Positions 5,668-36,460 are shown, numbered from the stretch's first letter. The stretch is DNA of 64,000 bases from Escherichia coli (GCF_030013205.1 NZ_CP122648.1); one strand, 5' to 3'. Numbers and translations: made by a program. Notes: generated by a model not told the origin, from the letters alone.

Positions 5668-5790
5668 GAAACCAGAACATGCACACACAAAAAAACCGCT
5701 TGCCATGCCGTAATCAGTCAGGTTACATTTCCGCTGCACCTCATAAAACGGGTGCCGGGATTCTCAACCCGATACAGAGCAAAGCGCATA

Positions 5791-5810
5791 ACCGCGCCAG
5801 CGGTTTTTTT
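5791..5810 (+). terminator. Putative intrinsic terminator inside the noncoding gap
   Basis: accgc-gcca-gcggt hairpin followed by a run of seven T. Confidence 0.35.
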
Positions 5811-5989
5811 GTGCGTACTGTATTGCCACGTCTTTTTCGCGTCAGAATTATGGCGGGGCGTACGGGGCCGACTTCGGTCGGGCCGGATTCTTTGCTCTCC
5901 GGTGTTGAGAACCCTGTACGTCTCGCCACCCCGAGATTCTCAACTCTGGATGGTGAGTTATTTCTATCACCGAGCAAAGAGGCCACACC

Positions 5990-9580: not shown

Positions 9581-10540
9581 ATGAAAATTTGTATCGACGA
9601 CGGCTCCACCAACATCAAGCTGGCATGGACTGAGAACGGCGAACGCCGCAACGCCATCAGCCCGAACAGCTTCAAGTCGGAATGGTCTGCGCCGTTCGGT
9701 GGCTCGCAGCCTGCGAACTACATGCTTGATGGCGTGCGCTATGGTTTTGATCCGGTCAGCGATCGCTTTGTCCAGACGACCGACACGCAATACCAGTACA
9801 GCGATGTGAATGTCATTGCCATTCATCACGCGCTGGTCAAATCAGGCATCACGCCTCAGGAGGTGGATGTGGTTGTCACCCTGCCACTGAGCGAGTATTT
9901 CGACACAAACGCACAGCCAGACATGGCCAACATCAACCGCAAAAAAGCGAACGTTATGCGCCCGGTGGAGTACCAGAACGGCGAAGCATTCACTATCCGT
10001 AACGTGCGGGTTATGCCTGAATCCATTCCGGCTGGTTTTAAGGCACTGGCTGACATGAGTCCGTTTGAATCCCTGCTGATTGTGGATTTGGGCGGAACCA
10101 CGCTGGATGTGGCAAAGGTTCAGGGGCAACTGGCAGGTATCAGCCAGGTGTTTTGCGATCCACACGTAGGCGTTTCTCTGATGGCTGATGCCGTGCTGTC
10201 GGTGATGGCCACTAACGGTATGCGTACCAGTCACCACATCGCCAATACCATTATTGAGCACCGTCACGATGAAGCCTGGCTACGCCAGCACATTCACAAT
10301 GACGCGCATTACAACAGCCTGATGGCGGTTATTCGTGAAAAGGAGGAAACACTGAAACAACGCGTGATCCGCGCGCTGGCGGGTTTTTCGGGTTACGGGC
10401 GGGTGATGGTTGTAGGTGGAGGAGCGGAGATTGTGGCACCCGCTATCCGCGAAGCCTGCGGAGTTAATGCGACTTTCATCGCGGACGGGGTGCCACAGTT
10501 TGCTCTGGTTAATGGGCTGTACGCAATGGACAAGGAGTAA
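9581..10540 (+). CDS. parM: ParM/StbA-like actin-family segregation ATPase
   Basis: MKICIDDGSTNIKLAW...ISPNSF...YSDVNVIAIHHAL...VMPESIPAG...IVDLGGTTLD...VGGGAEI...ALVNGLYAM tracks plasmid R1 ParM along its whole length (recalled alignment). Confidence 0.8.
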   Translation: MKICIDDGSTNIKLAWTENGERRNAISPNSFKSEWSAPFGGSQPANYMLDGVRYGFDPVSDRFVQTTDTQYQYSDVNVIAIHHALVKSGITPQEVDVVVTLPLSEYFDTNAQPDMANINRKKANVMRPVEYQNGEAFTIRNVRVMPESIPAGFKALADMSPFESLLIVDLGGTTLDVAKVQGQLAGISQVFCDPHVGVSLMADAVLSVMATNGMRTSHHIANTIIEHRHDEAWLRQHIHNDAHYNSLMAVIREKEETLKQRVIRALAGFSGYGRVMVVGGGAEIVAPAIREACGVNATFIADGVPQFALVNGLYAMDKE

Positions 10541-10544
10541 ATCA

Positions 10545-10859
10545 ATGACGACACCAACCAGACGGATAAGTTTCTATCTGAAGCCCGCCGTCGTCAAGAG
10601 CGAACGGGAGGCGTGCAGTTACCTCGACAGCCTGCCAGCCTCCGAACGCAGCCGCGCACAACGCGCGGCTTTTCTGGCCGGACTGGCTCTTATAAAACGC
10701 ATCCCCGCGTTGGCGTATTCGCTGGCAGAATGGTCAGAAGACGAAATAAGGATGCCACCGCTACCAGTACAGCCTGAAAAACCGGCGAAACCAGCAGCAG
10801 ACAGCGCCCCCCATATGCAGCAGGTGAAGAAGAATATTCAGGCGTTTTTTCCGAAGTGA
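10545..10859 (+). CDS. parR: ParR-like centromere-binding adaptor (putative)
   Basis: RRISFYLKPAVVKSEREACSYLDSLPASERSRAQRAAFLAGLALIKR resembles the R1 ParR N-terminal DNA-binding region; immediately downstream of parM. Confidence 0.6.
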   Translation: MTTPTRRISFYLKPAVVKSEREACSYLDSLPASERSRAQRAAFLAGLALIKRIPALAYSLAEWSEDEIRMPPLPVQPEKPAKPAADSAPHMQQVKKNIQAFFPK

Positions 10860-24470: not shown

Positions 24471-24810
24471 TAAACCGCTTTACATTGATTTGCTCATCAC
24501 CGGTCGCAATCTCACGCTGAACAGCGCCAGTGAGCCGGTGTTATGCAACAACAGAGAAAGTATTGCCCAGGACTGCCAGCACGCCATCATTGAGAGCGGA
24601 CTGGCAACGCGCCTGCTGGCTGAAAAAAGTCCGACGCTTCGTGCCGACATCATGATGCAGATGACGCTGCTGATTGAAGATGATGAGCGCATCACACCCG
24701 GCACGGTCAGTGTGACAGAAGAAACCCCGCTTTCTGGTCGCCTGCTGATTAGCGCCCACACCGAAGATTTTTTTGATCCCCTGACTTTTACGGTATCTCT
24801 TGATGATTAA
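24460..24810 (+). CDS. Baseplate protein (gpW-like position, putative)
   Basis: 116 aa, upstream of the baseplate J-like gene. Confidence 0.4.
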   Translation: MHTDKPLYIDLLITGRNLTLNSASEPVLCNNRESIAQDCQHAIIESGLATRLLAEKSPTLRADIMMQMTLLIEDDERITPGTVSVTEETPLSGRLLISAHTEDFFDPLTFTVSLDD

Positions 24811-25987
24811 CGGCAAACCCACCGCAGATTACGAGCGCATTCTGGCTGATAACGGCATGCCGGTAACAGAAGAACAGGCGCGCGCTGAATTTGAAGCCAT
24901 TGTCAAAGACGAAGGGCTTATCACCAACACATCCCACATGTCGCCGTTCTGGCGACTGATTACAGCTATCGCCACAAAACCCGTGATGTGGCTGAAAGAT
25001 GCGCTGGTTAATGTGGTGATGAAAAACCTGTTTCTGGCCGATGCCAGCGGTGTATTCGTTGATGTTTTTGCCTGGGCGGTAAACCTGCAACGCAAGGCCG
25101 CCACGCACGCAGCCGGCGTGATTCGTTTCACCAAGAACGACATTGATCGCGCAGTTACCGTGCCGGCCGGTACGCAGATTCAGACAGAACGCATTAACGG
25201 CGTGATTTATACGCTGACCGTTGTCAGGGATACCGTTATTCCGGCAGGAACACTCAGCATGAACATCGATGTTTCTGCGGAACAGGCCGGAGCCGGCTTT
25301 AACCTTGCGCCGGGATATTACCGCATCCTTCCGGTGGCGATTGATGGTATTGCCGGTGTTGAGAACGATGAAAACTGGCTGACCACACCGGGTGCCAACG
25401 AAGAAAGCGATGACGAGCTGCGTGATCGTGTTCGCAATCAGTTTAATCTTGCCGGCGCTTATCACACCGATGCAGTTTACCGGGGGTTAATTGCCGGCGT
25501 TGCCGGCATCAGTGCCGACCGCATCTATTTTCTGCATGACGCACCACGCGGCCCCGGCACAGCAAATGCTTACATTCTGCTGGATACCGGCATCGCATCC
25601 GAACCGTTCGTTGATGCAGTAAACGCATTCATTAACGATGAAGGTCATCACGGGCACGGTGATGATCTGCGCTGTTTTTCCATGCCTGAAACGCGCCACA
25701 CCCTGACCGTGACTCTCTGGCTGTATGCAACACTGAACCTCAGCGATGAGGAAATTCAGATGTTATTGCGCAATGTGGAAAACCTGGTTCGCTGCGCATT
25801 TCGCGAAAACAGCGATTATGACGTTCAGAAAACATGGCCGTACAGCCGTTTCAGCATGTCCAGACTGGGCGAAGAGATCCACCAGGTATTTCCACAGGTG
25901 GAGTCGGTTACGTTTTCTCTTCCGGATATTCTCAGTGATCTGGCCGTTCCTCGTCTGGAATCCCTTACTGTGGAGGTGAGCGCGTGA
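24800..25987 (+). CDS. Baseplate J-like protein (putative)
   Basis: 395 aa; position upstream of a tail-protein-I-like gene and the fibre genes. Confidence 0.55.
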   Translation: MMINGKPTADYERILADNGMPVTEEQARAEFEAIVKDEGLITNTSHMSPFWRLITAIATKPVMWLKDALVNVVMKNLFLADASGVFVDVFAWAVNLQRKAATHAAGVIRFTKNDIDRAVTVPAGTQIQTERINGVIYTLTVVRDTVIPAGTLSMNIDVSAEQAGAGFNLAPGYYRILPVAIDGIAGVENDENWLTTPGANEESDDELRDRVRNQFNLAGAYHTDAVYRGLIAGVAGISADRIYFLHDAPRGPGTANAYILLDTGIASEPFVDAVNAFINDEGHHGHGDDLRCFSMPETRHTLTVTLWLYATLNLSDEEIQMLLRNVENLVRCAFRENSDYDVQKTWPYSRFSMSRLGEEIHQVFPQVESVTFSLPDILSDLAVPRLESLTVEVSA

Positions 25988-26619
25988 AACTTCCGGAGAT
26001 CCCTGAATTTCCGCTCCCCACCTGGATGAATAAAGGCGAGCCGTTAACGCTGGCACATTCATCGCATCGCTACTGGGAAAAGGTATACAGCTGGCTGACG
26101 TGGCCACTACAGCAGATTGATGTCGACACCTGCGCAGAGCCTTTACTTAACCTGCTGGCTTATCAGCGCAATATCACCCGATTTAAAGGTGAGCCGGTTT
26201 CGTTATTTCGCTTAAGAGTGAAACACGCGTTTATTAACGCTCAGGACTCTGGCGAACGCGCCGGCTTCGAACGCATCTTTAAGCGTCTTGGCGTGGGAGA
26301 CGTTAAAACACTGGAACGGCAACTGCAGCATGACTGGGACGTTATTTTACTGCGCATTAATGACACCCAGTTAAGTGAAAACAACGCGCTGATGATGCAG
26401 CTCGTGCGCCAGTATGGTCGTACCTGCAGGCGCTATTTCTTTCAGGTAATCAATACAACCACTGCCCGGCTGACAGCCGGCACATTTGATGGCCATTACA
26501 GGTATCACACAGCAGAAGCAACGGTGAGAAAGGACACCATCTGGTTAACCGCTTCGCTACAGGCAGGACATTACGGCCTGTCCGTGGAACATTACACATT
26601 ACAGGCAGATGAAGCATGA
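25984..26619 (+). CDS. Tail protein I-like (putative)
   Basis: 211 aa; position between the J-like gene and the fibre. Confidence 0.45.
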   Translation: MKLPEIPEFPLPTWMNKGEPLTLAHSSHRYWEKVYSWLTWPLQQIDVDTCAEPLLNLLAYQRNITRFKGEPVSLFRLRVKHAFINAQDSGERAGFERIFKRLGVGDVKTLERQLQHDWDVILLRINDTQLSENNALMMQLVRQYGRTCRRYFFQVINTTTARLTAGTFDGHYRYHTAEATVRKDTIWLTASLQAGHYGLSVEHYTLQADEA

Positions 26620-28544
26620 GCACGATTATTACTGAACAGTACGAACACTGGTGCGCAAATCAAATCATCAGTGGAAAACCTGCGCGCCCGGATACATTTG
26701 TTTTTGCATATATTCCGGGACAGGATGAATCCGCAGAGATCCCCTGCGATGAGATACTCCCTGATGAATCCATGATTCAGTATCGTGCGCCGGTCACCCA
26801 GTACGGCCTCCTGTCGCCGAACGCGACCGCGTTTTCCATCATTCTGGACACGACAGTCGGCGACTTCGAATACAACTGGATCGGTCTGCTGAACGAAGAA
26901 AGTGGCGTGCTCTGCATGATTGCACACACACCTCGTCAGCAAAAAATTAAAACAGCGAACGGCGTGCAGGGAAACAACCTGATCCGCACATTTTCCATGG
27001 AGTTTGACGGCGCAGCCGCAGCAATGCATATCGATGTCAGCGCCGATGTCTGGCAGATTGATTTCACTGCACGCCTGGCCGGAATGGATGAAGCCCGCCG
27101 ACTGCTGGCATTTGATCACTATGGTGAAGCCGCTTTTCTGGGGGATGGTTTTCAGGTCAGCTATCAGGATGGTACCGCCACTGTTGCCGCCGGCATCGGG
27201 TATGTGGGAGGTCTGCGCGTCAGCCTGCGCGAACCTTACAGCCTGCCGGCTGCTGTCGGGGATACCCTCTGGATTGATGCAAGCTGGCAGGGATTTGTTA
27301 CCGGCGAATGGAGCACCGTTTTTACGTTCTGCGCTCGCAAGGAACACGCGCCCTATACAGACGGGAACGGTTTCCAACACTTTGTCGCGCCACTTGCAAA
27401 ACTGACAGCAGGTGGCCCACAGGATTTACGCCCACAGACGCCCGACGAAGAGCAAAGCAACGCGCTGGCAGAACACGAAAAATCCCGCAGACACCCGGAT
27501 GCCACGCTGACCGAAAAAGGCTTTGCGCAGTACAGCAACGCCACCGACAGCGATGCAGAAGACCGCGCCGCCACGTCAAAAGCGGTAAAAATCGCAATGG
27601 ATAACGCCAACGCACGTCTTGCGAAAAATCGCAACGGCAGCGACATTCCCAATAAACCGCTGTTTATTGAAAACGTCGGACTGAAACCCACCGTTGATAA
27701 AGCTGAAAGCGCCGTTCAACGCGCTGGCGACACCATGACCGGGGAACTGAAAATCCGTGGTGTTAATGCACTGAGGATTTTCAACGAAGCCTTTGGTCTG
27801 ATTTTTCGTCGCTCGGAAGAGTGCCTGCACCTTATCCCTACCAGTGAAGGTCAGGGCGAGAATGGCGATATTGGCCCACTGCGGCCCATTTCCATTAACC
27901 TGCGCCAGGGCGATGTGGTTATTGGTGACAGGATTGGCATCGGTAATGAGAACAATCTGGGTGAAAAATCACTCACGCTCTGTGATAGCAATACCGGTTT
28001 TAAGTGGGGCGGACGCGGTGTTATTAATGTGTTTGCAGAGGGACACAACGCCTTTCGTTTTACAAAAAACGGTGTGCTGGCATTAGAAAATCTCTCGACC
28101 GGCAATTTAAGAAAGTTCACGCTGTCGTGTGACAGTTCTTCCACGAAGAGTGCAAGATTTAATCTATGGGGAAATTCCTCAAGGCCTGTTGTTGCAGAGC
28201 TTGGTGATGATTCTGGCTGGCATTTTTACAGTCAGAGGAATACGGATAACAGCATAACGTTTGCCGTAAACGGGCAGATGGTTCCATCAAACTACGGAAA
28301 CTTTGATGCCCGCTATCAGCAGCGAAATGGCGGCGTGCAGGATGTGCGTTATGGTTCCGAAATGTATTACAACCCGGGAGGTAACCAGGTATCCTGGACA
28401 TTTCGCTCACCTTCAGGCCACGGGTTATCCGGTATTAATGTGCAGGAAACCGGAAGTAATTCGGCAGATAACATCGGCGGCGTGTATTACCGTCCGCTTC
28501 AGAAACTGATTAACGGCACCTGGTATAACGTGGCGAGTGTTTAA
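26616..28544 (+). CDS. Tail fibre protein 1 (P2 gpH-like C-terminal region)
   Basis: ...AEHEKSRRHPDATLTEKGF... and ...FNLWGNSSRPVVAELGDDSGWHFYSQRNTDNSITFAVNGQMVPSNYGNFDARY... match the recalled P2 H. Confidence 0.8.
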   Translation: MSTIITEQYEHWCANQIISGKPARPDTFVFAYIPGQDESAEIPCDEILPDESMIQYRAPVTQYGLLSPNATAFSIILDTTVGDFEYNWIGLLNEESGVLCMIAHTPRQQKIKTANGVQGNNLIRTFSMEFDGAAAAMHIDVSADVWQIDFTARLAGMDEARRLLAFDHYGEAAFLGDGFQVSYQDGTATVAAGIGYVGGLRVSLREPYSLPAAVGDTLWIDASWQGFVTGEWSTVFTFCARKEHAPYTDGNGFQHFVAPLAKLTAGGPQDLRPQTPDEEQSNALAEHEKSRRHPDATLTEKGFAQYSNATDSDAEDRAATSKAVKIAMDNANARLAKNRNGSDIPNKPLFIENVGLKPTVDKAESAVQRAGDTMTGELKIRGVNALRIFNEAFGLIFRRSEECLHLIPTSEGQGENGDIGPLRPISINLRQGDVVIGDRIGIGNENNLGEKSLTLCDSNTGFKWGGRGVINVFAEGHNAFRFTKNGVLALENLSTGNLRKFTLSCDSSSTKSARFNLWGNSSRPVVAELGDDSGWHFYSQRNTDNSITFAVNGQMVPSNYGNFDARYQQRNGGVQDVRYGSEMYYNPGGNQVSWTFRSPSGHGLSGINVQETGSNSADNIGGVYYRPLQKLINGTWYNVASV

Positions 28545-28546
28545 CA

Positions 28547-29098
28547 ATGTTGCATTTAAAAAATATTACTGCAGGCCATCCGAAAACCGCAGAACAATAT
28601 CAGATGACAAAACAACATGGTATCACCTGGCTTTTTTCGGAAGATGACAAAAACTGGTATGAAGAGCTGAAAAATTTTGCCAGTGACACCATAAAAATGG
28701 TTTACACCGGAGACGGGCGCGTGGTGTGGGTCGGTAAGGATGTGACAGGCATTGAACCCCGTAACGCCAGTGTTATTGAAGTTCCTGATATTACCGCTAA
28801 CCGCCGTATTACCGTGCCTGGTTACTGGTTTTACCGCGACGATAAATTTGTCTTCGACTACAAACTTAAAGCGGAAGATGAGCGTGATGCCCTGTTACAA
28901 CAGGCCAGCATCATGACCAGCGAATGGGAAAAAGACCTGCTGCTGGGATTAATCAGTGACGAAGACAGGGAAAAACTGAAAGCATGCCGTATTTATGCAA
29001 AAGCACTACAGCAGATGACTTTCAGCCAGGTTACAGATAAAGCATCGTATGCCGCGATTGTATGGCCAGAATTACCGCAGAACATTAGCGAGAATTAA
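28547..29098 (+). CDS. Tail fibre assembly chaperone (P2 gpG-like)
   Basis: MLHLKNITAGHPKTAEQYQMTK...WYEELKNFASDTIKMVY... parallels the recalled P2 G N-terminus. Confidence 0.75.
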   Translation: MLHLKNITAGHPKTAEQYQMTKQHGITWLFSEDDKNWYEELKNFASDTIKMVYTGDGRVVWVGKDVTGIEPRNASVIEVPDITANRRITVPGYWFYRDDKFVFDYKLKAEDERDALLQQASIMTSEWEKDLLLGLISDEDREKLKACRIYAKALQQMTFSQVTDKASYAAIVWPELPQNISEN

Positions 29099-29104
29099 GA
29101 AGTA

Positions 29105-30397
29105 ATGAGCGCACTGTTGACGAAAGCATTTGAAAAGTGGGTTGCTGAATGCGCAGCCAGTAATTTACCTGCACGCCCTGACGCTATTATTTTTGCTCTG
29201 ATGGAGCGGGAACCAACGCGCGAAGATAATACCGTTCCGGAAGAAAAAATCACATATGCTGTGAATGAACTGACCTATGGCCAGTTAAACCCGAACAATA
29301 TTGTGTGTAGCGCGGTTGTTCCTGATGACTGTGCATTCAGCTATGACTGGATTTGCCTCATCCATCAGGCCAGTGGAACACTATGCGGCGTAATAAAAAC
29401 GTCTGTTCAACAAAAAGTAACAGGCGAGTCACTTATTCGTAATTTCACGATTATATACAGCGGCATTGCTCAGGCTGCGCAAATTACCGTTCCTCCACAG
29501 AGCTGGCAGGTGGATATTACCCCCGAGCTGAAATCAATGCTGAAAGCTCCTAACCGACTGTCAGAAATTGCAGCAGAGGGGGAAGAGGCGCAACAGGAAT
29601 CCCGAGACAATCTGGGGTTGAAAGGTGCTGCTTTGCTTGATGTTCAGAGCGATATCTACGACCGCACCGCAGGCCGTCTGGCGTTACCCGGTGCATTCGG
29701 ATACGGGCATTTATTCTCTTCGTCGGAAGTCGTGTATTTCAGCGCGCAAAATGGCCCCGCCGAATTTCTTAAATGGGTATTTGAGGTCACACCAGGGCGT
29801 TATGCGGTAACGCAGTACGGTGGTTCTGGTAATTGGTATAACCCCATCATTGCTTATGATGGGGGGAATGTATATTTCAGGGGGCTTGTAGATATAGAAA
29901 TACGAAGTGGAATGGCCACTAATGGCACCGAAAGCAATGGTCGGTGGGTAACCTTTCATGGCGATGCCGAATACACTGGCCAGTATGGTGAGGGGCCGGC
30001 TAAGTATCAGGTATTGGTTACAAAATCAATGTCTTCGGCGACACTTCCCGGGGCATGGTCGCGGCTATTCTGGTCACGCGACCGACTGAGACAACTGTTA
30101 TGTGCAGGAGATACTACATCACAGCGTGCTCCGCAACCGGGTAGCCTGGTTCTTGCCGCATACCTGCCAGATAGCGGCAGCAGTGATGTTGCGTTACTTC
30201 GTGTACAAGCTGTGCCGGGCTCAAGGCTCCGGCAGGTGGTCTTCGAAGCGGAGTACCGCAGCTCGGGATTTAGTGCCGCTGCCAGGTCGTTTGTCTATGG
30301 GAGTACCCTGCCTGGCACATACTTCGCTTTATCAGGAGGCCCGGATGTCACGTTTTATAATCGGGGACTGGTTTCTTTGTTTGTGAGGGCTACATGA
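29105..30397 (+). CDS. Tail fibre protein 2 (paralogous N-terminal domain, different C-terminus)
   Basis: N-terminal ~150 aa align with fibre 1 (PARPDAIIFAL vs PARPDTFVFAY; SLIRNFTIIY vs NLIRTFSMEF; WQVDITPEL vs WQIDFTARL). Confidence 0.6.
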   Translation: MSALLTKAFEKWVAECAASNLPARPDAIIFALMEREPTREDNTVPEEKITYAVNELTYGQLNPNNIVCSAVVPDDCAFSYDWICLIHQASGTLCGVIKTSVQQKVTGESLIRNFTIIYSGIAQAAQITVPPQSWQVDITPELKSMLKAPNRLSEIAAEGEEAQQESRDNLGLKGAALLDVQSDIYDRTAGRLALPGAFGYGHLFSSSEVVYFSAQNGPAEFLKWVFEVTPGRYAVTQYGGSGNWYNPIIAYDGGNVYFRGLVDIEIRSGMATNGTESNGRWVTFHGDAEYTGQYGEGPAKYQVLVTKSMSSATLPGAWSRLFWSRDRLRQLLCAGDTTSQRAPQPGSLVLAAYLPDSGSSDVALLRVQAVPGSRLRQVVFEAEYRSSGFSAAARSFVYGSTLPGTYFALSGGPDVTFYNRGLVSLFVRAT

Positions 30398-30969
30398 TGC
30401 AGATTAAAGATATTAAAAACCCTCGTTACCTGGAATCTGGCGCGATTGACTGCGAGGTGCTTTTGGAAGGGATGGATGAAGCCGTTCCCTACACAGCCAC
30501 GCCAGAAGACACAGCAACAACAGGCCAGAAAATTTGGCAGGAGCTGCAAAGCGGCAAATGGGGCGAAATCGCCCCGTTCACCGTCACGCCGGAACTTATC
30601 GCTGCGGCAAAAGATGCCAAAAAGCGGGAAATCGAGGCGTGGCGTACAGAACAGGAAGCACTGCCGTTCACGTTCGAATGGAACGGTCGCACCTGGAACG
30701 CTGGCCCCGACTCAATGGCCCGTCTTTATCCGGTAGTAATGGCGGCGAAATCTGACACGGCGCGGGACGTTATGGCGTGGGGTGACGTCGATAATCAACA
30801 GGTGAGACTGTCAATGCCGGAACTGGAAGAACTGGCGACAGCAATGGCGCAGGCACAGGTCGATCGCAATGACGAGATTTATCGCCGTCAGCGACAGATG
30901 AAGGACGTGCTGGATAGCCTTAATAATCTTGCCGACATCCGCGCTTTTCAGGCTGGAGAGTCAGAATGA
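30394..30969 (+). CDS. Second tail fibre assembly chaperone (putative)
   Basis: 191 aa directly downstream of fibre 2, overlapping its stop. Confidence 0.45.
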   Translation: MMQIKDIKNPRYLESGAIDCEVLLEGMDEAVPYTATPEDTATTGQKIWQELQSGKWGEIAPFTVTPELIAAAKDAKKREIEAWRTEQEALPFTFEWNGRTWNAGPDSMARLYPVVMAAKSDTARDVMAWGDVDNQQVRLSMPELEELATAMAQAQVDRNDEIYRRQRQMKDVLDSLNNLADIRAFQAGESE

Positions 30970-31679
30970 AATGGGAAAAGGCAATTCTGCGCCCGTCAGC
31001 CATGAACATTAAATGCTCTGTGGTTTGCCTTCATCCATGGTCAGAAAATACCGGAAACATCAAACCATCGGGGCGTTATCTCAGCCCCGAAAATGCTGTA
31101 TCTGCACTTTTACCCTATCTGAAAGAAAGCACAGAAAAAGACATTGTGGCGCTGTTGTTTTGCGCTCCTTCTGCTGGCGAGTTTTTATCACTCACCAGAC
31201 AATTTTCATGTGCATTTCCGTTGCCAGAGGTGGGACGAATGTCCCGCATGATATCCAGTCAGCTTTCGCTGGCCATCAGCAAAATGCAAATCCCCGCCAG
31301 ACCGGTAACAGCACTTCCGGAACCAATAACGCTGTCGACACAGACCACTCGCAGCATGTCACTGGCGGCAACCATTGCGCAGGCAGCCACTCCTGCCGCC
31401 ATATCACCGGAAACACTGTCATCATCACTGCGCCAGTTCATGAATGCGAGAGATAAAGCACTACAGGAAATCGCCGATCAGCAGGCCGCGCTCCGGCAGA
31501 AATTTTGCCCGGTGTGGCGTTTTTGCTGCAAAGGAGCCCTGAGCCAGGCCGCCGCGCTGATACAAAAAAACATTCCACACCCGGAGTGGGTTTTTACAGC
31601 TGTGATGCTGTTCGTCGGCGATGATCTCTCATCACTAAGGGAAGCACTACATGACCCAGATGATTGTCCTTGCGCTTGA
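30966..31679 (+). CDS. Hypothetical cysteine-rich protein
   Basis: 237-aa ORF with no recognisable structural-protein motif. Confidence 0.4.
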   Translation: MKWEKAILRPSAMNIKCSVVCLHPWSENTGNIKPSGRYLSPENAVSALLPYLKESTEKDIVALLFCAPSAGEFLSLTRQFSCAFPLPEVGRMSRMISSQLSLAISKMQIPARPVTALPEPITLSTQTTRSMSLAATIAQAATPAAISPETLSSSLRQFMNARDKALQEIADQQAALRQKFCPVWRFCCKGALSQAAALIQKNIPHPEWVFTAVMLFVGDDLSSLREALHDPDDCPCA

Positions 31680-32226
31680 CGGGGAAGCCATTCTGCTGCG
31701 CAACATCACCGTCAGCGCCACCATGCAACTACCGGACAAAGATATGTCCGGACAGTCAACCAGCACCACGAGCGCCCAGCAGGGAAACAAGGCTAAAGAG
31801 CTGCGCGTTTCGGGGGTTATTGATTTTAACGATGAAGCCATTCTGACCCGTATTTTTCAGCTTGCGGAAGCAACAGAAAGCAACGGCGCTAAAAAAACAT
31901 ATCGCATTGCTAACGCTACCGCGAAGGCAATCAATATGCGACAGGGGATATTTTCTGGTGGCATTGATGCCACGGAACAACAGGGAAAAATGCACTGGCA
32001 GGTCACCTTTACTCTCAGGGAAAAATTAAGCGTGCCAGAGAAAGCATCAGCACGTAGCGGTTCACAAAAAACCATCGCCAGACAGCAGACCCAGAATGGC
32101 AGCGAACAGGCACCAGACAAAGGCATGAATACGCAAAGTTCGTTCTGGAAAAAAATCAATGATGCCGTTGGCTCTGGTCTGGATGCTGTTGGCATCGGGA
32201 GCGTGAAAGAGGAAGGGAAAACATGA
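31651..32226 (+). CDS. Hypothetical protein
   Basis: 191-aa ORF between the fibre module and the spike gene. Confidence 0.4.
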   Translation: MTQMIVLALDGEAILLRNITVSATMQLPDKDMSGQSTSTTSAQQGNKAKELRVSGVIDFNDEAILTRIFQLAEATESNGAKKTYRIANATAKAINMRQGIFSGGIDATEQQGKMHWQVTFTLREKLSVPEKASARSGSQKTIARQQTQNGSEQAPDKGMNTQSSFWKKINDAVGSGLDAVGIGSVKEEGKT

Positions 32227-33920
32227 AATTGATACAACGCTGCATGATTAATGGCGAACGGGTGGAAATTGCCGATATAAGCCTTGTTCTTACCCTGAAT
32301 GCTGCCGGTCGTGGCTTCATTTCTGTTAACAATCTGTCATCCGAACACAGCCTTGCCGGCGCAATGGTACAAATTGATCTCGGTCGTGACGGTGAAGCAT
32401 GGCGCTATTTCTCCGGCTATATTGAGCGCGATCAACCTGCTGAAAATGGCTCACGTCGCCTTTTTATTCGTGAAGCGGCTGCTGTGCTGGATTTTGATTT
32501 CCCCTGCTCCATGCAACACCCGACGTTGCGGGAGGTACTCGATAATCTGGGGCGACAAAGCGGTATCGTTTTTATCACTCCGGATGCGGATTATGCCAGT
32601 ATACCAACTCCCTACATCACCCACAGCGGCAGCGGAGCACAACTGCTCAGCCAGCTGGGGCGAGCATTCAGTATCAACGATTACGTCTGGCACCCTATGC
32701 CGGACGGTTCTGTATTTGTGGGAAGTGCAGCTGATTCACGATTTGCCAGCATTACAATGCCGGATATTCCGCAACAGTACACACTCGGGCAAAGCGGCGG
32801 AAACAGCATCGACATCATGTTTATGGAAACTGTGCGACCGGGCGTGAACCTTCCGGCCGGGCGCATTACCCGTGTAGCCCTCAACAACGAGAAAATGACC
32901 CTGACATGGGAGCGCCTTACCGCCACGGGCAGCCCTGTCTCCAAATCACCATTACGCAGACAGATGGAAACACAGTTCCCGGAACTGGCCAGCGGCACAC
33001 TACACACCAGGCTGGCGCGCGTCATTGCACCAACGGAATCCGCCACCCTGGGCGATGTGGCCGACAGCTTCCGTCCACGCTACGCCGTGGACGTGCAACT
33101 GCTCGATGAGGACGGCAACGATAAAAGCGATACGCCTGTTTACCCGGCAGTCCCACTCCCCGTCCCGATGGCTGGTAGCGAGGCGGGATGTTTTGCCTAC
33201 CCGCCGGCAGGCACCATCGTGGAAATATCTAACATTGAAGGGCGCCCGGATAAACCTGTTATCAGGCAAATCTTACCTGCTGGCCATAACCTGCCTGATG
33301 TAAAGCCCGGCGAACAACTGCAGCAACAGCGCGCAGAAGTGTTTCAGCGCGTCACGACTGACGGAAGCTGGCACAGAGAAACAGACCAGCAAATCAGGGA
33401 GCAGTCAGCCACCCGCACAATTAACAGTGATGCAGAAGAGCGCACCACAACAACCAGAACAACCACAGTACGGGCAAACGACATAACCAGTGTTCTGGGA
33501 ACCAGCAAGCTGGCGGCAGGACAAATAGAGCACCTTACTACCGGCCATTACGCGATCGCAGCCAGCGAGCATATCCAGATGGTAGCGCAGGATTTGCTGA
33601 CTAAACTCAAAGGGGCAATATCCACAATTGAGCAGGACCTGACTGAAAACGTGGGAGGCCGCAGAACATGCCGGGCGGACGGCGGTCTGAAGTTTACAGC
33701 CCCGACAGTATTTATTGGTCGCGGTGGCTCACGGGAAAAATCCGAACTTAATCTGCTGACGTTGTTGATTGATATTCTGGATCTGATTCAATTGCTGGCC
33801 ACGCACACAGCAAACCACACCCACAGCAACACTGGCGCACCAATGAACAGCGGCGAACTTGCCGCAGATGCCCTGCAGGCTACGAGCCTGCGCGAAAAAT
33901 ACGGCGACCTTATCGCCTGA
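32223..33920 (+). CDS. Baseplate hub/central spike protein (putative)
   Basis: 565 aa; C-terminal ...LIDILDLIQLLATHTANHTHSNTG... carries HxH repeats like the metal-binding apex of phage central spikes. Confidence 0.45.
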   Translation: MKLIQRCMINGERVEIADISLVLTLNAAGRGFISVNNLSSEHSLAGAMVQIDLGRDGEAWRYFSGYIERDQPAENGSRRLFIREAAAVLDFDFPCSMQHPTLREVLDNLGRQSGIVFITPDADYASIPTPYITHSGSGAQLLSQLGRAFSINDYVWHPMPDGSVFVGSAADSRFASITMPDIPQQYTLGQSGGNSIDIMFMETVRPGVNLPAGRITRVALNNEKMTLTWERLTATGSPVSKSPLRRQMETQFPELASGTLHTRLARVIAPTESATLGDVADSFRPRYAVDVQLLDEDGNDKSDTPVYPAVPLPVPMAGSEAGCFAYPPAGTIVEISNIEGRPDKPVIRQILPAGHNLPDVKPGEQLQQQRAEVFQRVTTDGSWHRETDQQIREQSATRTINSDAEERTTTTRTTTVRANDITSVLGTSKLAAGQIEHLTTGHYAIAASEHIQMVAQDLLTKLKGAISTIEQDLTENVGGRRTCRADGGLKFTAPTVFIGRGGSREKSELNLLTLLIDILDLIQLLATHTANHTHSNTGAPMNSGELAADALQATSLREKYGDLIA

Positions 33921-33958: not shown

Positions 33959-33985
33959 AACGCACGGTTCCGACCGTGCGTTTTT
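33959..33985 (+). terminator. Intrinsic terminator after the tail operon
   Basis: aacgcacggttccgaccgtgcgtttttc hairpin plus T-run. Confidence 0.6.
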
Positions 33986-34749: not shown

Positions 34750-34890
34750 ATGTCGCAAAAATCGCTTACGGCCATCACGTTCTGCGTGACGGTAATCCTC
34801 ATCATCTGGATGCTGCACGGCTCGCTGTGTGAAATACGGATGAGCTTCTGGGGAGCGGAGTTTGCGGCGTTCTTACAGTGTAAACAGTAA
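34750..34890 (+). CDS. Hok/Gef-family type I toxin (46 aa)
   Basis: MSQKSLTAITFCVTVILIIWMLHGSLCEIRMSFWGAEFAAFLQCKQ carries the Hok/Gef SLCEIR...AAF signature; long structured leader upstream; below the ORF-track cutoff. Confidence 0.65.
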   Translation: MSQKSLTAITFCVTVILIIWMLHGSLCEIRMSFWGAEFAAFLQCKQ

Positions 34891-35025
34891 GGAAACCGCG
34901 ACGGGGGAGCAATCCCCCGTCAATCGGTTGCCAGGGTATGGTCGAAGTGGCACCCAAATTTAAATTGAGGCCCACCAGTAAGAGTGGTGGGCTTAACGCT
35001 TATTTAAATTTGAAAGGAACTCTTT

Positions 35026-35322
35026 ATGAGTGAAATGGTATTTTGTCGCGGATGCGGCAAGGAAATACATAAAGATGCCACATCCTGCCCCAATTGTGGA
35101 GCACCTCAAAGAACAGCAAGTTCAAAAAGCAGAATGACAGCCGCACTACTGGCTTTCTTTTTAGGTGGTCTTGGAGCACACAAATTTTATTTAGGTAAAG
35201 TGGGGCAAGGATTCCTTTACCTTATTTTTTGCTGGACATTCATTCCGGCAATCGTGGCATTTATTGAGTTTTTTATCTATCTATGCACCTCTGATGAAGA
35301 CTTTGCCCGCAAATATGGCTAA
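35026..35322 (+). CDS. Zinc-ribbon plus TM2-domain membrane protein
   Basis: CRGCGKEIHKDATSCPNCGAP zinc ribbon followed by LLAFFLGGLGAHKFYLGKVGQGFLYL; AT-rich. Confidence 0.6.
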   Translation: MSEMVFCRGCGKEIHKDATSCPNCGAPQRTASSKSRMTAALLAFFLGGLGAHKFYLGKVGQGFLYLIFCWTFIPAIVAFIEFFIYLCTSDEDFARKYG

Positions 35323-35347
35323 TGCCTAGTGGGCGAATCAGAATGAC

Positions 35348-35382
35348 AAACCCGCAGCGTAAAAACTGCGGGTTTTCTTTTT
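35348..35382 (+). terminator. Intrinsic terminator after the TM2-domain gene
   Basis: aaacccgcagcgtaaaaactgcgggttttcttttt. Confidence 0.6.
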
Positions 35383-35429
35383 GCTACCCTCACAAATGAG
35401 GACACCATACATAAGCAATAGGCATAACA

Positions 35430-35464
35430 GATCGATGCAATAAATCCGATCGATAAAAACGATC
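35430..35464. promoter_or_regulatory. Cluster of three GATCGAT (Dam GATC) sites upstream of the com-like gene
   Basis: GATC at 35430-35433, 35448-35451 and 35461-35464, about 50-80 bp upstream of the com-like start. Confidence 0.4.
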
Positions 35465-35511
35465 GATTTGTTATCATATCGGCAGCAGTAACCACACAAG
35501 AGGTGCCGCAA

Positions 35512-35709
35512 ATGACGCAAAATGTACGATGCAAAAATTGCAACAAACTACTTGCCCGCGCCTCATTTCACTACATTGAAATAAAATGTCCGCGCTGCAA
35601 AACACTTAACCAGATAACGAGAGCCATCGAGCACCCCACACACATGAGGAGTTATGACCGTGGGGATCGCAATCCAGCACCAACCAGCACATATACCGGA
35701 ACACACTAA
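35512..35709 (+). CDS. com: Com-like zinc-finger translational regulator (phage Mu Com family, putative)
   Basis: MTQNVRCKNCNKLLARASFHYIEIKCPRCKTLNQITRAIEHPT vs recalled Mu Com MKSIRCKNCNKLLFKADSFDHIEIRCPRCK...CEHPT; AAGAGGTG RBS; overlaps the 5' end of the methyltransferase ORF. Confidence 0.6.
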   Translation: MTQNVRCKNCNKLLARASFHYIEIKCPRCKTLNQITRAIEHPTHMRSYDRGDRNPAPTSTYTGTH

Positions 35710-36460
35710 GGTTTATCAGACTGACAATGCCACGCTCTGTCGTGGGAATGCGCTGGAAATATTGCCGCTGATTGAGCCAGAAAGCATTGATGCCTTAATC
35801 ACTGACCCGCCTTACAGTTCGGGTGCGACACACAAGGCCGGACGCACCAACCAGGGCAGCCATGCAAAATATCTGAACGGCGAGAACCTTCACCGCTTTG
35901 ATGGGTTCGCTGGTGAAAACATGGACGCCCGTTCGTGGGCTTACTGGACACAATTATGGATGGCACAGGCACACCGTGCAGTCAGGCCGGGCGGTTATGC
36001 CCTGGTATTTACTGACTGGCGACAACTACCAGCTTTAACCGATGCGTTTCAGGCCAGTGGCTTTACATGGCGCGGCATCATTGCGTGGAACAAGGGGAGG
36101 GGGTCACGAACACCCCATACGGGGTATTTCAGGCATCAGTGCGAATACATCGTCTGGGGCAGCAAAGGCCATTTAGATAAATCGCCTTCGGGGCCGTTCG
36201 ACGGTTGCATGACGTACCCGGTTATCCCGTCAAAGAAAATGCACCCGACCGGAAAACCAGAAGAACTAATGGCGGAACTGGTCAGGACTGTGAATAGTGG
36301 CGGAACAGTCCTTGATCCTTTTATGGGGTCAGGGACAACGGGTGTGGCTGCACTGAAAGCAGGGCGAAAATTTATTGGTATAGAAACCAGTGATCATTAT
36401 TTTGAGGTAGCAGCGCAGCGGCTTCGAGAGACTATTACCACAACCATTTCGGCTACATAA
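35654..36460 (+). CDS. DNA amino-methyltransferase (N6-adenine or N4-cytosine; DPPY motif before the AdoMet motif)
   Basis: ...IDALITDPPYSSG... and ...VLDPFMGSGTTGVAALKAGRKFIGIE...; start lies inside the com-like ORF (ATG 35654, or GTG 35660). Confidence 0.8.
   Translation: MTVGIAIQHQPAHIPEHTKVYQTDNATLCRGNALEILPLIEPESIDALITDPPYSSGATHKAGRTNQGSHAKYLNGENLHRFDGFAGENMDARSWAYWTQLWMAQAHRAVRPGGYALVFTDWRQLPALTDAFQASGFTWRGIIAWNKGRGSRTPHTGYFRHQCEYIVWGSKGHLDKSPSGPFDGCMTYPVIPSKKMHPTGKPEELMAELVRTVNSGGTVLDPFMGSGTTGVAALKAGRKFIGIETSDHYFEVAAQRLRETITTTISAT

What the first reader, a model, noticed from the sequence alone, without database searches (positions are those of the whole stretch)
26616..30969. Two tandem tail-fibre genes with homologous N-terminal domains, each followed by its own assembly chaperone
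Fibre 1 (642 aa) and fibre 2 (430 aa) share a recognisably homologous N-terminal ~150 aa but diverge completely afterwards. Fibre 1 ends in a P2 gpH-type region, fibre 2 in an unrelated C-terminus, and each is followed by a different chaperone. The second pair is more AT-rich. Both are co-oriented, so this is not a Mu G-type invertible segment; it implies two receptor specificities encoded at once or a recent cassette insertion.
Basis: partly seen in the sequence, partly recalled or inferred. Interest (0 to 1): 0.45.

Follow-up and report, generated by a model that had tools for sequence, protein, structure and literature searches.

The report
Prophage with two tail fibres
An E. coli prophage encodes two complete tail fibres in a row, each with its own helper protein. 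The second fibre is a long-kept feature of this phage lineage, with its own version of the attachment domain, so the virus probably recognises two different surface receptors.

Summary
Four co-oriented, tightly packed genes encode fibre 1 (642 aa), a P2 gpG-type chaperone (183 aa), fibre 2 (430 aa) and a DUF4376 protein (191 aa). The two fibres share only their N-terminal PF12571 domain: 36% identity, E 3e-25. One sub-claim is wrong. The AT-rich stretch covers the tip of fibre 1, chaperone 1 and the anchor of fibre 2, not the second pair.

The window is E. coli ETEC4079. The locus lies in a roughly 34-kb Peduoviridae prophage with an HP1/ESSI-2-type tail. Sequenced phage relatives (SI7, ESSI2_ev040) have one fibre and one chaperone at this position.

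The second fibre is not a recent insertion:
- Its anchor forms a distinct clade (59% identity or more inside it, 43% or less to anything else).
- In all eight loci examined, that anchor sits second, behind a fibre 1 and a Caudo_TAP chaperone. The hosts are Escherichia, Yersinia and Plesiomonas.
- It evolves under purifying selection (dN/dS 0.11-0.28).

Only the distal modules are mobile. Tip 1 plus chaperone 1 is 96% identical to phage pPE4. Tip 2 plus chaperone 2 is 80-82% identical to phiP27, pPE4 and Rac-SA53, where the same tip sits on a lambda-Stf-type PF08400 anchor.

Most likely both fibres are mounted on one baseplate and give two receptor specificities. Co-incorporation and the docking site are inferred, not shown. 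This is a modest new variant of a known theme.

The parts
24800..25987 (+). Baseplate J/gp47-family wedge protein (395 aa). Lineage backbone.
   Evidence: phrog_6 baseplate wedge, E 3e-62. RefSeq names it baseplate J/gp47. 94-96% nt identity to other E. coli prophages of the lineage.
25984..26619 (+). gpI-like baseplate protein (211 aa). Its stop overlaps the fibre 1 start. The last 16 aa or so (26569-26616, ...SVEHYTLQ...) are a C-terminal extension seen only in the dual-fibre clade.
   Evidence: phrog_1228 tail protein, E 9e-82. The extension is present in 4 of 4 dual-fibre loci and absent from 3 single-fibre relatives. It is conserved across Escherichia, Yersinia and Plesiomonas.
26616..28544 (+). 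Fibre 1 (642 aa). It has a PF12571 anchor (aa 3-157), a lineage-conserved shaft with a Phage_fiber_2 repeat (aa 297-338), then a P2 gpH-type distal module from about aa 351 (nt about 27666).
   Evidence: It is orthologous over aa 4-358 to the only fibre of Salmonella phage SI7 (46% identity). The backbone homology ends at 27610-27659. The exchanged tip starts at 27667-27735.
28547..29098 (+). Chaperone 1 (183 aa). A tail fibre assembly protein of the P2 gpG / Caudo_TAP type.
   Evidence: 40% identity to P2 gpG, E 1e-47. phrog_136, E 2e-58. With tip 1 it is 96.4% nt identical to phage pPE4 over 27735-29067.
29105..29524 (+). Anchor of fibre 2 (aa 1-140). A PF12571 paralogue specific to the second position.
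   Evidence: Pfam E 1e-12. It forms a tight clade separated by an identity gap, 59% or more inside against 43% or less outside. It is sister to all sampled HP1-type primary anchors and carries two clade-specific deletions. dN/dS is 0.11-0.28. The module boundary lies after ...PPQSWQVD.
29537..30397 (+). Distal module of fibre 2, 'tip 2' (aa 145-430). A mobile receptor-binding module.
   Evidence: 76% aa identity to the C-terminus of phiP27 L56. 80-82% nt identity to phiP27, pPE4 and Rac-SA53. The same tip is found on PF12571 anchors (430-431 aa) and on PF08400 anchors (489-491 aa). dN/dS is 0.18-0.25. No solved homologue.
30394..30969 (+). Chaperone 2 (191 aa; RefSeq starts it at 30397). A DUF4376 protein, the putative assembly chaperone of fibre 2.
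   Evidence: PF14301, E 1e-14. phrog_1141, E 5e-87. It travels with tip 2. dN/dS is 0.13-0.27. The model is confident (pLDDT 90.9) but has no PDB match. Family members act as fibre chaperones in Alteromonas phage V22 and in Campylobacter CJIE1 (PMC7289586, PMC7882524).
30966..31679 (+). Conserved 237-aa tail-module protein. The lineage backbone resumes here.
   Evidence: phrog_1677 and phrog_31292. Homology to L005-L007 resumes at 30970-31008. The same gene follows the single chaperone in SI7 and ESSI2_ev040.
31651..32226 (+). HP1_ORF34-like baseplate protein (191 aa). It carries a C-terminal extension of 13 aa specific to the dual-fibre clade (GLDAVGIGSVKEE).
   Evidence: PF25759 on the orthologues. 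The extension is and its conservation.
32223..33920 (+). Baseplate hub/spike protein (565 aa), the last gene of the tail operon. A terminator-like hairpin follows at 33959-33982.
   Evidence: phrog_2258 baseplate protein, E 2e-232. Weak VgrG match. Terminator-like site.

Best explanation
The locus is the receptor-recognition part of the late tail operon of a P2-family (Peduoviridae) prophage with an HP1/ESSI-2-type tail. It encodes two complete, separately anchored fibres.

Fibre 1 is the canonical fibre. It has a PF12571 anchor, a conserved shaft and a P2 gpH-type tip, and is folded by a gpG-type chaperone.

Fibre 2 is a short accessory fibre. It has a dedicated paralogous PF12571 anchor of about 140 aa, fused directly to a tip of about 285 aa that also occurs on lambda-Stf-type (PF08400) side fibres of phiP27-like phages. 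The adjacent DUF4376 protein folds it.

Both fibres are made from the same transcript and mounted on the same baseplate, so the virion carries two receptor-binding specificities. Host range evolves by swapping each tip-plus-chaperone module at conserved junctions, while the anchors stay matched to the tail.

Shown: the gene structure, the homologies, the mosaic junctions, conservation across the clade, position specificity and purifying selection.
Inferred: co-expression, chaperone function of the DUF4376 protein, co-incorporation into the virion, a separate docking site, and distinct receptors.
For: - Gene structure and domains.
- The genes from 24800 to 33920 abut or overlap, and no promoter-like or terminator-like site lies on the coding strand between the fibre genes. 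The first strong terminator-like hairpin on that strand follows the hub gene at 33959.
- Single-fibre relatives have the same gene order minus one fibre-chaperone pair: SI7, ESSI2_ev040, E. coli NT1W22 and CM2010-0578/1, and a Sodalis prophage.
- The fibre-2-type anchor is a distinct clade. 19 representatives score E 1e-30 or better at 59% identity or more, followed by a gap to 43% or less.
- That anchor was in second position in every locus examined: the window, L005, L006, L007, L012 (Yersinia), L015 (E. albertii), L016 and L017 (Plesiomonas).
- In E. coli the two features are about equally common: 45 genomes have this lineage's gpI at 95% or more, and 47-48 have the fibre-2 anchor.
- dN/dS is 0.11-0.28 for anchor 2, tip 2 and chaperone 2.
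- At least 15 different full-length distal parts (283-775 aa) sit on this anchor at the 50% clustering level. That is the pattern expected of a working receptor-binding protein.
- Tip 2 is carried by PF12571 anchors here and by PF08400 anchors in phiP27-type phages. Each phage type therefore keeps an anchor suited to its own tail.
- DUF4376 proteins are needed for fibre maturation or function in Alteromonas V22 and Campylobacter CJIE1 (PMC7289586, PMC7882524).
Against: - There are no expression, proteomic or structural data for this prophage or any relative.
- No extra baseplate gene accompanies the second fibre. The only clade-specific differences are short C-terminal extensions of the gpI-like and ORF34-like proteins, and these are confounded with phylogeny.
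- In about 8 E. coli genomes the second fibre gene is broken and tip 2 is replaced by a pseudogene fragment. It is therefore dispensable, at least for keeping the prophage.
- Among E. coli prophages with near-identical backbones, anchor 2 differs by 26-30% in amino acids. That is unexpected if it must fit one fixed docking site.
- The tip-2 model was too poor to read (pLDDT 52), so nothing is known about its receptor.
Confidence: 0.6

Rival explanations
1. Both fibres are functional but compete for the same six docking sites through their homologous PF12571 anchors. Each virion then carries a random mixture, or mostly one kind. The result is a mixed virion population (bet-hedging), not a 6+6 arrangement.
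For: The anchors belong to the same Pfam family and align end to end. Single-fibre relatives have the same set of baseplate genes, so no dedicated adaptor gene is visible.
Against: Anchor 2 is a separate clade with two specific deletions and is only 31-43% identical to any primary anchor. It has stayed distinct across several genera, always in second position. It has not been homogenised with anchor 1, which suggests a different binding environment. The dual-fibre clade also has its own extensions on two baseplate proteins.
Confidence: 0.2
2. Fibre 2 does not bind the baseplate. It docks on the conserved shaft of fibre 1 and forms a branched fibre, as in T5-like phages DT57C and DT571/2.
For: The shaft of fibre 1 (aa 150-345) is part of the conserved backbone. 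Branched fibres are known elsewhere (PMC4728585).
Against: The N-terminus of fibre 2 is a full PF12571 domain. In P2 gpH and R-pyocin fibres this domain is the baseplate anchor (PMC7882524, citing Williams 2008). The fibre 1 shaft is equally conserved in the single-fibre phage SI7, so it shows no feature specific to carrying a branch.
Confidence: 0.08
3. The second pair is a recently inserted or decaying passenger cassette with no role in the virion.
For: The tips are mobile and shared with unrelated phages at 80-96% nt identity. In some relatives the second fibre is a pseudogene. GC content varies along the region.
Against: The feature is clade-wide and spans several genera. The anchor is an old paralogue. 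dN/dS is 0.11-0.28. No repeats flank the region. The exchange junctions lie inside the fibre genes, not around the pair.
Confidence: 0.05
4. Only one fibre is expressed at a time, through a switch analogous to Mu G or P1 C inversion.
For: None beyond the presence of two alternative fibre-chaperone sets.
Against: All four genes are co-oriented, and each fibre has its own start codon and anchor. There is no invertase gene in the prophage annotation and no inverted repeat above chance. No promoter-like or terminator-like site on the coding strand separates the two pairs.
Confidence: 0.02

Closest known systems
P2 gpH tail fibre with gpG assembly chaperone (Peduovirus P2)
   Same: Fibre 1 has the PF12571 anchor, the Phage_fiber_2 repeat and a gpH-type C-terminal 290 aa (41% identity). 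Chaperone 1 is 40% identical to gpG. The order J-I-H-G is the same.
   Different: P2 has one fibre and one chaperone. The tail module here is HP1/ESSI-2-type (DUF2586 sheath, DUF2590, HP1_ORF34, hub gene after the fibres), not P2-type. The N-terminal anchor is barely alignable with that of P2 gpH.
Tandem fibre loci of phiP27, Rac-SA53 and 'Actinobacillus' phage pPE4 (fibre, Tfa, second fibre, DUF4376)
   Same: Same four-gene order. The tips and chaperones are homologous at 72-96% nt identity for pair 1 and 80-82% for pair 2.
   Different: In those phages the second fibre has a lambda-Stf-type PF08400 N-terminus (E 1e-62) that is unrelated to the anchor of their first fibre. Here the second fibre has a PF12571 paralogue of the first fibre's anchor. 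The tail backbones are unrelated. No functional study of those loci turned up in the literature searches.
Single-fibre HP1/ESSI-2-type Peduoviridae (Salmonella phage SI7, Escherichia phage ESSI2_ev040, Haemophilus HP1)
   Same: Same tail module and gene order. J is 59-62% identical. Fibre 1 is orthologous to their only fibre.
   Different: They have one fibre and one chaperone. Their gpI-like and ORF34-like proteins lack the C-terminal extensions. None of the 50,697 phage records has two places matched by the anchor-2 query.
Mu G segment and P1 C segment (invertible host-range cassettes)
   Same: Two alternative tip-plus-chaperone sets next to each other. Part of the fibre 1 shaft matches Mu S.
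   Different: Those sets face each other, share one constant N-terminus, are flanked by inverted repeats and need Gin or Cin. None of this is present here.
DUF4376 fibre chaperones (Alteromonas V22 gp27, the CJIE1 H-fibre partner)
   Same: PF14301 domain in the C-terminal half. The gene lies directly downstream of the fibre it serves (PMC7289586, PMC10579305, PMC7882524).
   Different: Only the domain is shared. The function of this member is untested. Its confident model has no solved structural relative.
Phages that carry two receptor-binding proteins at once (Sf14, Wifcevirus, Gordonclarkvirinae, T4 long and short fibres)
   Same: The functional idea is the same: two different fibres on one contractile-tail baseplate (PMC11821841, PMC11990801).
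   Different: These are unrelated lineages and fibre proteins. Here the two fibres use paralogous copies of one anchor domain in a small, P2-like baseplate.

Membership tests
P2 gpH-type tail fibre (fibre 1) | N-terminal PF12571 (DUF3751) anchor domain | tested here: met
   Residues 3-157, E 3e-28.
P2 gpH-type tail fibre (fibre 1) | C-terminal receptor-binding region homologous to P2 gpH | tested here: met
   41% identity over 311 aa, E 2e-61, same C-terminal motif.
P2 gpH-type tail fibre (fibre 1) | A gpG/Caudo_TAP chaperone gene immediately downstream | tested here: met
   40% identity to P2 gpG, E 1e-47. PF02413 on the orthologues.
PF12571-anchored tail fibre (fibre 2) | N-terminal PF12571 domain | tested here: met
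   Residues 3-142, E 1e-12. 36% identity to the fibre 1 anchor, E 3e-25.
PF12571-anchored tail fibre (fibre 2) | Physically attached to the baseplate and present in the virion | not testable with these tools
   Needs virion proteomics or cryo-EM. Only indirect support is available: purifying selection and conservation across the clade.
phiP27 L56 / lambda Stf-type side tail fibre | PF08400 'prophage tail fibre N-terminal' domain | tested here: not met
   Fibre 2 has PF12571 instead. phiP27 L56 has PF08400, E 1e-62. Only the distal 285 aa is shared, at 76% identity.
DUF4376 tail fibre chaperone (chaperone 2) | PF14301 domain | tested here: met
   Residues 71-175, E 1e-14.
DUF4376 tail fibre chaperone (chaperone 2) | Encoded directly downstream of, and inherited together with, the fibre tip it serves | tested here: met
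   Its start overlaps the fibre 2 stop. Tip 2 and this gene form one homology block in phiP27, pPE4 and Rac-SA53.
DUF4376 tail fibre chaperone (chaperone 2) | Required for folding or trimerisation of the fibre | not testable with these tools
   Shown only for distant family members (PMC7289586, PMC7882524).
Mu G / P1 C invertible host-range segment | Site-specific invertase (Gin/Cin/Pin/Hin) next to the segment | tested here: not met
   No such gene in the annotated prophage.
Mu G / P1 C invertible host-range segment | Inverted repeats flanking two oppositely oriented tip-chaperone sets that share one constant N-terminus | tested here: not met
   All genes are co-oriented, each fibre has its own N-terminus, and the inverted repeats found have arms of 28 nt or less at 70-93% complementarity, which is chance level.
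HP1/ESSI-2-type Peduoviridae tail module | Gene order: DUF2586 sheath, HP1_Orf24 tube, TMP, DUF2590, J, I, fibre, chaperone, about 240-aa protein, HP1_ORF34, hub | tested here: met
   The one difference is the extra fibre-chaperone pair.

The most novel reading that the evidence does not exclude
A clade of small P2-family phages has evolved a second, dedicated fibre-docking site on an otherwise minimal baseplate. Candidate site: the clade-specific C-terminal extensions of the gpI-like and HP1_ORF34-like proteins. A specialised paralogue of the PF12571 anchor occupies it, so each virion carries 6+6 fibres with two specificities. The second position would act as a plug-in socket that accepts tips normally carried by lambda-Stf-type side fibres.
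Probability: 0.3. Interest if true: 0.5.

Novelty: new variant of a known kind. Interest (0 to 1): 0.35.

Why it matters
Tail fibres set phage host range, and P2-type and R-pyocin-type fibres are the standard chassis for retargeting phages and tailocins. A natural P2-family tail that carries two differently targeted fibres through two paralogous anchors would be useful in two ways. It would give a ready template for engineering dual-specificity particles. It would also provide a defined junction (after ...PPQSWQVD, about aa 140) at which many different tips are already grafted in nature.

The result also shows that one receptor-binding tip can move between PF12571-anchored and PF08400-anchored fibres, that is, between unrelated tail types. 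The carriers include pig ETEC and STEC strains, so the two tips may reflect receptors common on livestock E. coli.

Still, dual receptor-binding proteins and modular fibre exchange are well-known themes. A specialist would find this tidy rather than surprising.

Tried and rejected
- **Flanking repeats.** The search for direct or inverted repeats around 28547-30969 and the whole locus found only chance-level matches: 28 nt or less, 68-94%.
- **Internal signals.** No promoter-like or terminator-like site on the coding strand lies between the two pairs.
- **NCBIfam.** No hits for any of the four proteins.
- **PDB by sequence.** Nothing for fibre 2 or chaperone 2.
- **Tip 2 structure.** The AlphaFold model from a 16-sequence alignment reached only pLDDT 52. 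I did not use it or submit it to a fold search.
- **Chaperone 1 versus chaperone 2.** Profile-profile comparison showed no relationship.
- **Word-index protein search with anchor 2.** It returned mostly fragments.
- **Scan of GTDB species representatives.** It returned one locus, in E. albertii, because the derived patterns were strict.
- **Literature.** Searches for phiP27 fibres, DUF4376, DUF3751, 'two tail fiber' with P2-like, ESSI-2, pPE4, and 'second tail fiber' found no description of this arrangement.
- **Rejected readings.** A recent insertion, a Mu-like inversion switch, and the claim that the second pair is AT-rich.

Full report
**What is there**

The region holds four co-oriented ORFs on the + strand:
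- fibre 1, 26616-28544, 642 aa
- chaperone 1, 28547-29098, 183 aa
- fibre 2, 29105-30397, 430 aa
- chaperone 2, 30394-30969, 191 aa

They abut or overlap. The fibre 1 start overlaps the stop of the upstream gpI-like gene. The chaperone 2 start overlaps the fibre 2 stop. The next gene overlaps the chaperone 2 stop. No promoter-like or terminator-like site on the coding strand separates the two pairs. The first strong terminator-like hairpin on that strand comes after the hub gene, at 33959-33982.

**Check of the observation**

- The two fibres align only at their N-termini: 64/177 identical, 36%, E 3e-25. Both N-termini match Pfam PF12571, 'phage tail-collar fibre protein, N-terminal': fibre 1 at E 3e-28, fibre 2 at E 1e-12.
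- Fibre 1 also has a Phage_fiber_2 repeat. Its last 290 aa or so are 41% identical to the C-terminus of P2 gpH (E 2e-61).
- Chaperone 1 is 40% identical to P2 gpG (E 1e-47).
- Chaperone 2 is a DUF4376 protein (PF14301, E 1e-14). It shows no similarity to chaperone 1 by BLASTP or by profile-profile comparison.
- The claim that the second pair is more AT-rich is wrong. GC is 0.507 and 0.542 for fibre 2 and chaperone 2, against 0.520 and 0.446 for fibre 1 and chaperone 1. The low-GC stretch covers the tip of fibre 1, chaperone 1 and the anchor of fibre 2.
- No repeats above chance flank the region, and no invertase is present.

**Context**

The window is 100% identical to the chromosome of E. coli ETEC4079 from pig faeces. 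The locus lies in a prophage of about 34 kb between pheA and raiA, at window positions of about 2046-36460.
- Its early and replication region is 94% identical to P88-type (Xuanwuvirus) phages.
- Its tail module is of the HP1/ESSI-2 type: DUF2586 sheath, HP1_Orf24 tube, tape measure, DUF2590, J, gpI-like, fibres, a protein of about 240 aa, HP1_ORF34-like, hub.
- The sequenced relatives Salmonella phage SI7 and Escherichia phage ESSI2_ev040 have exactly this order with one fibre and one chaperone. So do E. coli prophages in NT1W22 and CM2010-0578/1, and a Sodalis prophage.
- Fibre 1 is the orthologue of that single fibre: 46% identity over aa 4-358 with SI7.

**The second fibre is a lineage feature, not a recent insertion**

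- In complete E. coli genomes, 45 carry this lineage's gpI gene at 95% identity or more. 47-48 carry a fibre-2-type anchor.
- An exhaustive HMMER search of 1.84 billion representatives with the anchor (aa 1-142) gave a bimodal result. 19 representatives scored E 1e-30 or better at 59-96% identity. Then came a gap to 43% identity or less.
- I inspected seven further loci carrying clade members. All seven have the anchor in second position, after a fibre 1 and a Caudo_TAP chaperone, in the same tail module. They are E. coli L005, L006, L007 and L016, E. albertii L015, Yersinia kristensenii L012 and Plesiomonas shigelloides L017. The anchor type is also found in Citrobacter and Salmonella proteins, whose loci I did not inspect.
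- The nearest protein outside the clade (43%) is the only fibre of a single-fibre Sodalis prophage.
- In a neighbour-joining tree rooted on P2 gpH, the fibre-2 anchors form one clade. It is sister to all sampled HP1-type primary anchors and is marked by two deletions of 5 and 6 aa. This tree is indicative only.
- dN/dS is 0.11-0.28 for anchor 2, 0.18-0.25 for tip 2 and 0.13-0.27 for chaperone 2.

**Mosaic structure**

Pairwise BLASTN splits the locus into five blocks:
- 24123 to 27610-27659: lineage backbone, 94-96% identical to other E. coli prophages. It reaches aa 330-350 of fibre 1.
- 27735-29067: tip 1 plus chaperone 1, 96.4% identical to phage pPE4.
- 29105 to about 29520: anchor 2, found only within the lineage, at 75-87%.
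- 29535/29644 to about 30916: tip 2 plus chaperone 2, 80-82% identical to phiP27, pPE4 and Rac-SA53.
- 30970 onward: backbone again, 91-93%.

An alignment of seven anchors places the module boundary just after ...PPQSWQVD, at about aa 137-140.

At the 50% clustering level, at least 15 different full-length distal parts (283-775 aa) are attached to this anchor. Some come without a DUF4376 gene. Others are followed by a different 352-aa protein.

**The same tip on two kinds of anchor**

phiP27, pPE4 and Rac-SA53 have the same four-gene order. Their second fibre starts with a PF08400 'prophage tail fibre N-terminal' domain (E 1e-62). That domain is unrelated to the anchor of their own first fibre.

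A search with tip 2 alone found 430-431-aa proteins with PF12571 and 489-491-aa proteins with PF08400, at 73-100% tip identity. The tip and its chaperone therefore move between phages, while each tail type keeps its own anchor. That pattern is what one expects if the second fibre has to be mounted on the particle.

**How it probably works**

- Shown: two intact fibre genes with separate anchors and separate chaperone-type genes in one operon. They are conserved and under selection.
- Known from other family members: PF12571 is the baseplate anchor of P2 gpH and R-pyocin fibres (PMC7882524, citing Williams 2008; PMC4684702). DUF4376 proteins are needed for fibre maturation in Alteromonas V22 and Campylobacter CJIE1 (PMC7289586, PMC10579305, PMC7882524).
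- Inferred: both fibres are made late in infection, each is folded by its neighbouring chaperone, and both are mounted on the baseplate. This gives two receptor specificities.

Where fibre 2 docks is open. No extra baseplate gene accompanies it. The only differences specific to the dual-fibre clade are two C-terminal extensions, and both are confounded with phylogeny:
- 16 aa on the gpI-like protein (...SVEHYTLQ...)
- 13 aa on the ORF34-like protein (GLDAVGIGSVKEE)

Competition of the two anchors for one site, or docking of fibre 2 on fibre 1, cannot be excluded.

**Points against, and limits**

- In about 8 E. coli genomes the second fibre gene is broken. A fragment annotated as a shikimate transporter pseudogene sits where the tip should be. 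In at least one (L021) an orphan DUF4376 gene remains.
- Within E. coli, anchor 1 is 98-99% identical between prophages whose anchor 2 is only 70-74% identical, with dS 1.4-1.6. Anchor 2 therefore travels with the variable cassette, not with the backbone.
- The tip-2 model was unusable. The chaperone-2 model is confident but has no solved relative.
- No experimental data exist for this prophage.

**Comparison with what is known, and novelty**

Phages with two receptor-binding proteins are well known (PMC11821841, PMC11990801). Tandem fibre-chaperone pairs are annotated in phiP27 and Rac-SA53. The literature searches found no description of a P2-family tail with two PF12571-anchored fibres. None of the 50,697 phage records has two matches to the anchor-2 query.

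I rate this a new variant of a known kind, of moderate interest.

Noticed in passing
window 5736-5933 (+): Rfam gathering-level matches to isrK (5736-5810) and to C4 antisense RNA (5846-5933). They lie side by side in the early region of the prophage, next to the 'ash family' gene.
   Followed up: no
window 9581-10859 (+): The integrated prophage carries a ParM segregation ATPase and a partition/stability protein. They belong to an early region that is 94% identical to P88-type (Xuanwuvirus) phages. The structural module has no close relative among isolated phages.
   Followed up: partly
window 34750-36460 (+): The right end of the prophage carries a Hok/Gef toxin gene, a TM2-domain gene and a Com-family regulator overlapping a DNA methyltransferase gene, just before raiA.
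   Followed up: no
L021 5578-8198; L007 6001-7035: In about 8 E. coli relatives the second fibre is a pseudogene. An anchor fragment is followed by a fragment annotated as 'shikimate transporter' in place of the tip. In L021 an intact orphan DUF4376 gene remains.
   Followed up: partly
L012 8001-10288 (Yersinia kristensenii): Here the second fibre is split into a 200-aa PF12571-only protein and a separate 340-aa tip-2-like protein (39% identity to the window tip), followed by DUF4376. A fused 566-aa version exists in other Yersinia. The split resembles the short 'a-type' DUF3751 proteins of tailocins, or it may be a disrupted gene (PMC4684702).
   Followed up: partly
L008 (PP818812.1, 'Actinobacillus phage vB_Apl-pPE4') 5001-8904: A phage recorded as infecting Actinobacillus pleuropneumoniae shares 96.4% nt identity with this E. 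coli prophage over tip 1 plus chaperone 1. It has the tail-end gene order of E. coli phage Rac-SA53. Either the host assignment is doubtful or the exchange was very recent; both organisms are pig-associated.
   Followed up: no
window 26569-26616 and about 32180-32220: The gpI-like and HP1_ORF34-like baseplate proteins carry C-terminal extensions (16 and 13 aa). These are conserved in all dual-fibre loci and absent from the single-fibre relatives examined.
   Followed up: partly
window 28547-29098 and 30394-30969 (PHROG hits): phrog_11571 (223 aa) matches the N-terminal half of chaperone 1 (aa 23-112) and the C-terminal DUF4376 half of chaperone 2 (aa 53-188). Natural chimeras of the two chaperone types therefore seem to exist.
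   Followed up: no
L006 6883-7941; L015 8883-9941: In some E. coli and E. albertii relatives a short 285-aa second fibre is followed by a 352-aa protein of unknown function (phrog_8291, E 7e-221) instead of a DUF4376 gene.
   Followed up: no
window 48405-49701 (+): kgtP (alpha-ketoglutarate permease), downstream of the rrn operon, is annotated as a frameshifted pseudogene in the matching RefSeq record.
   Followed up: no
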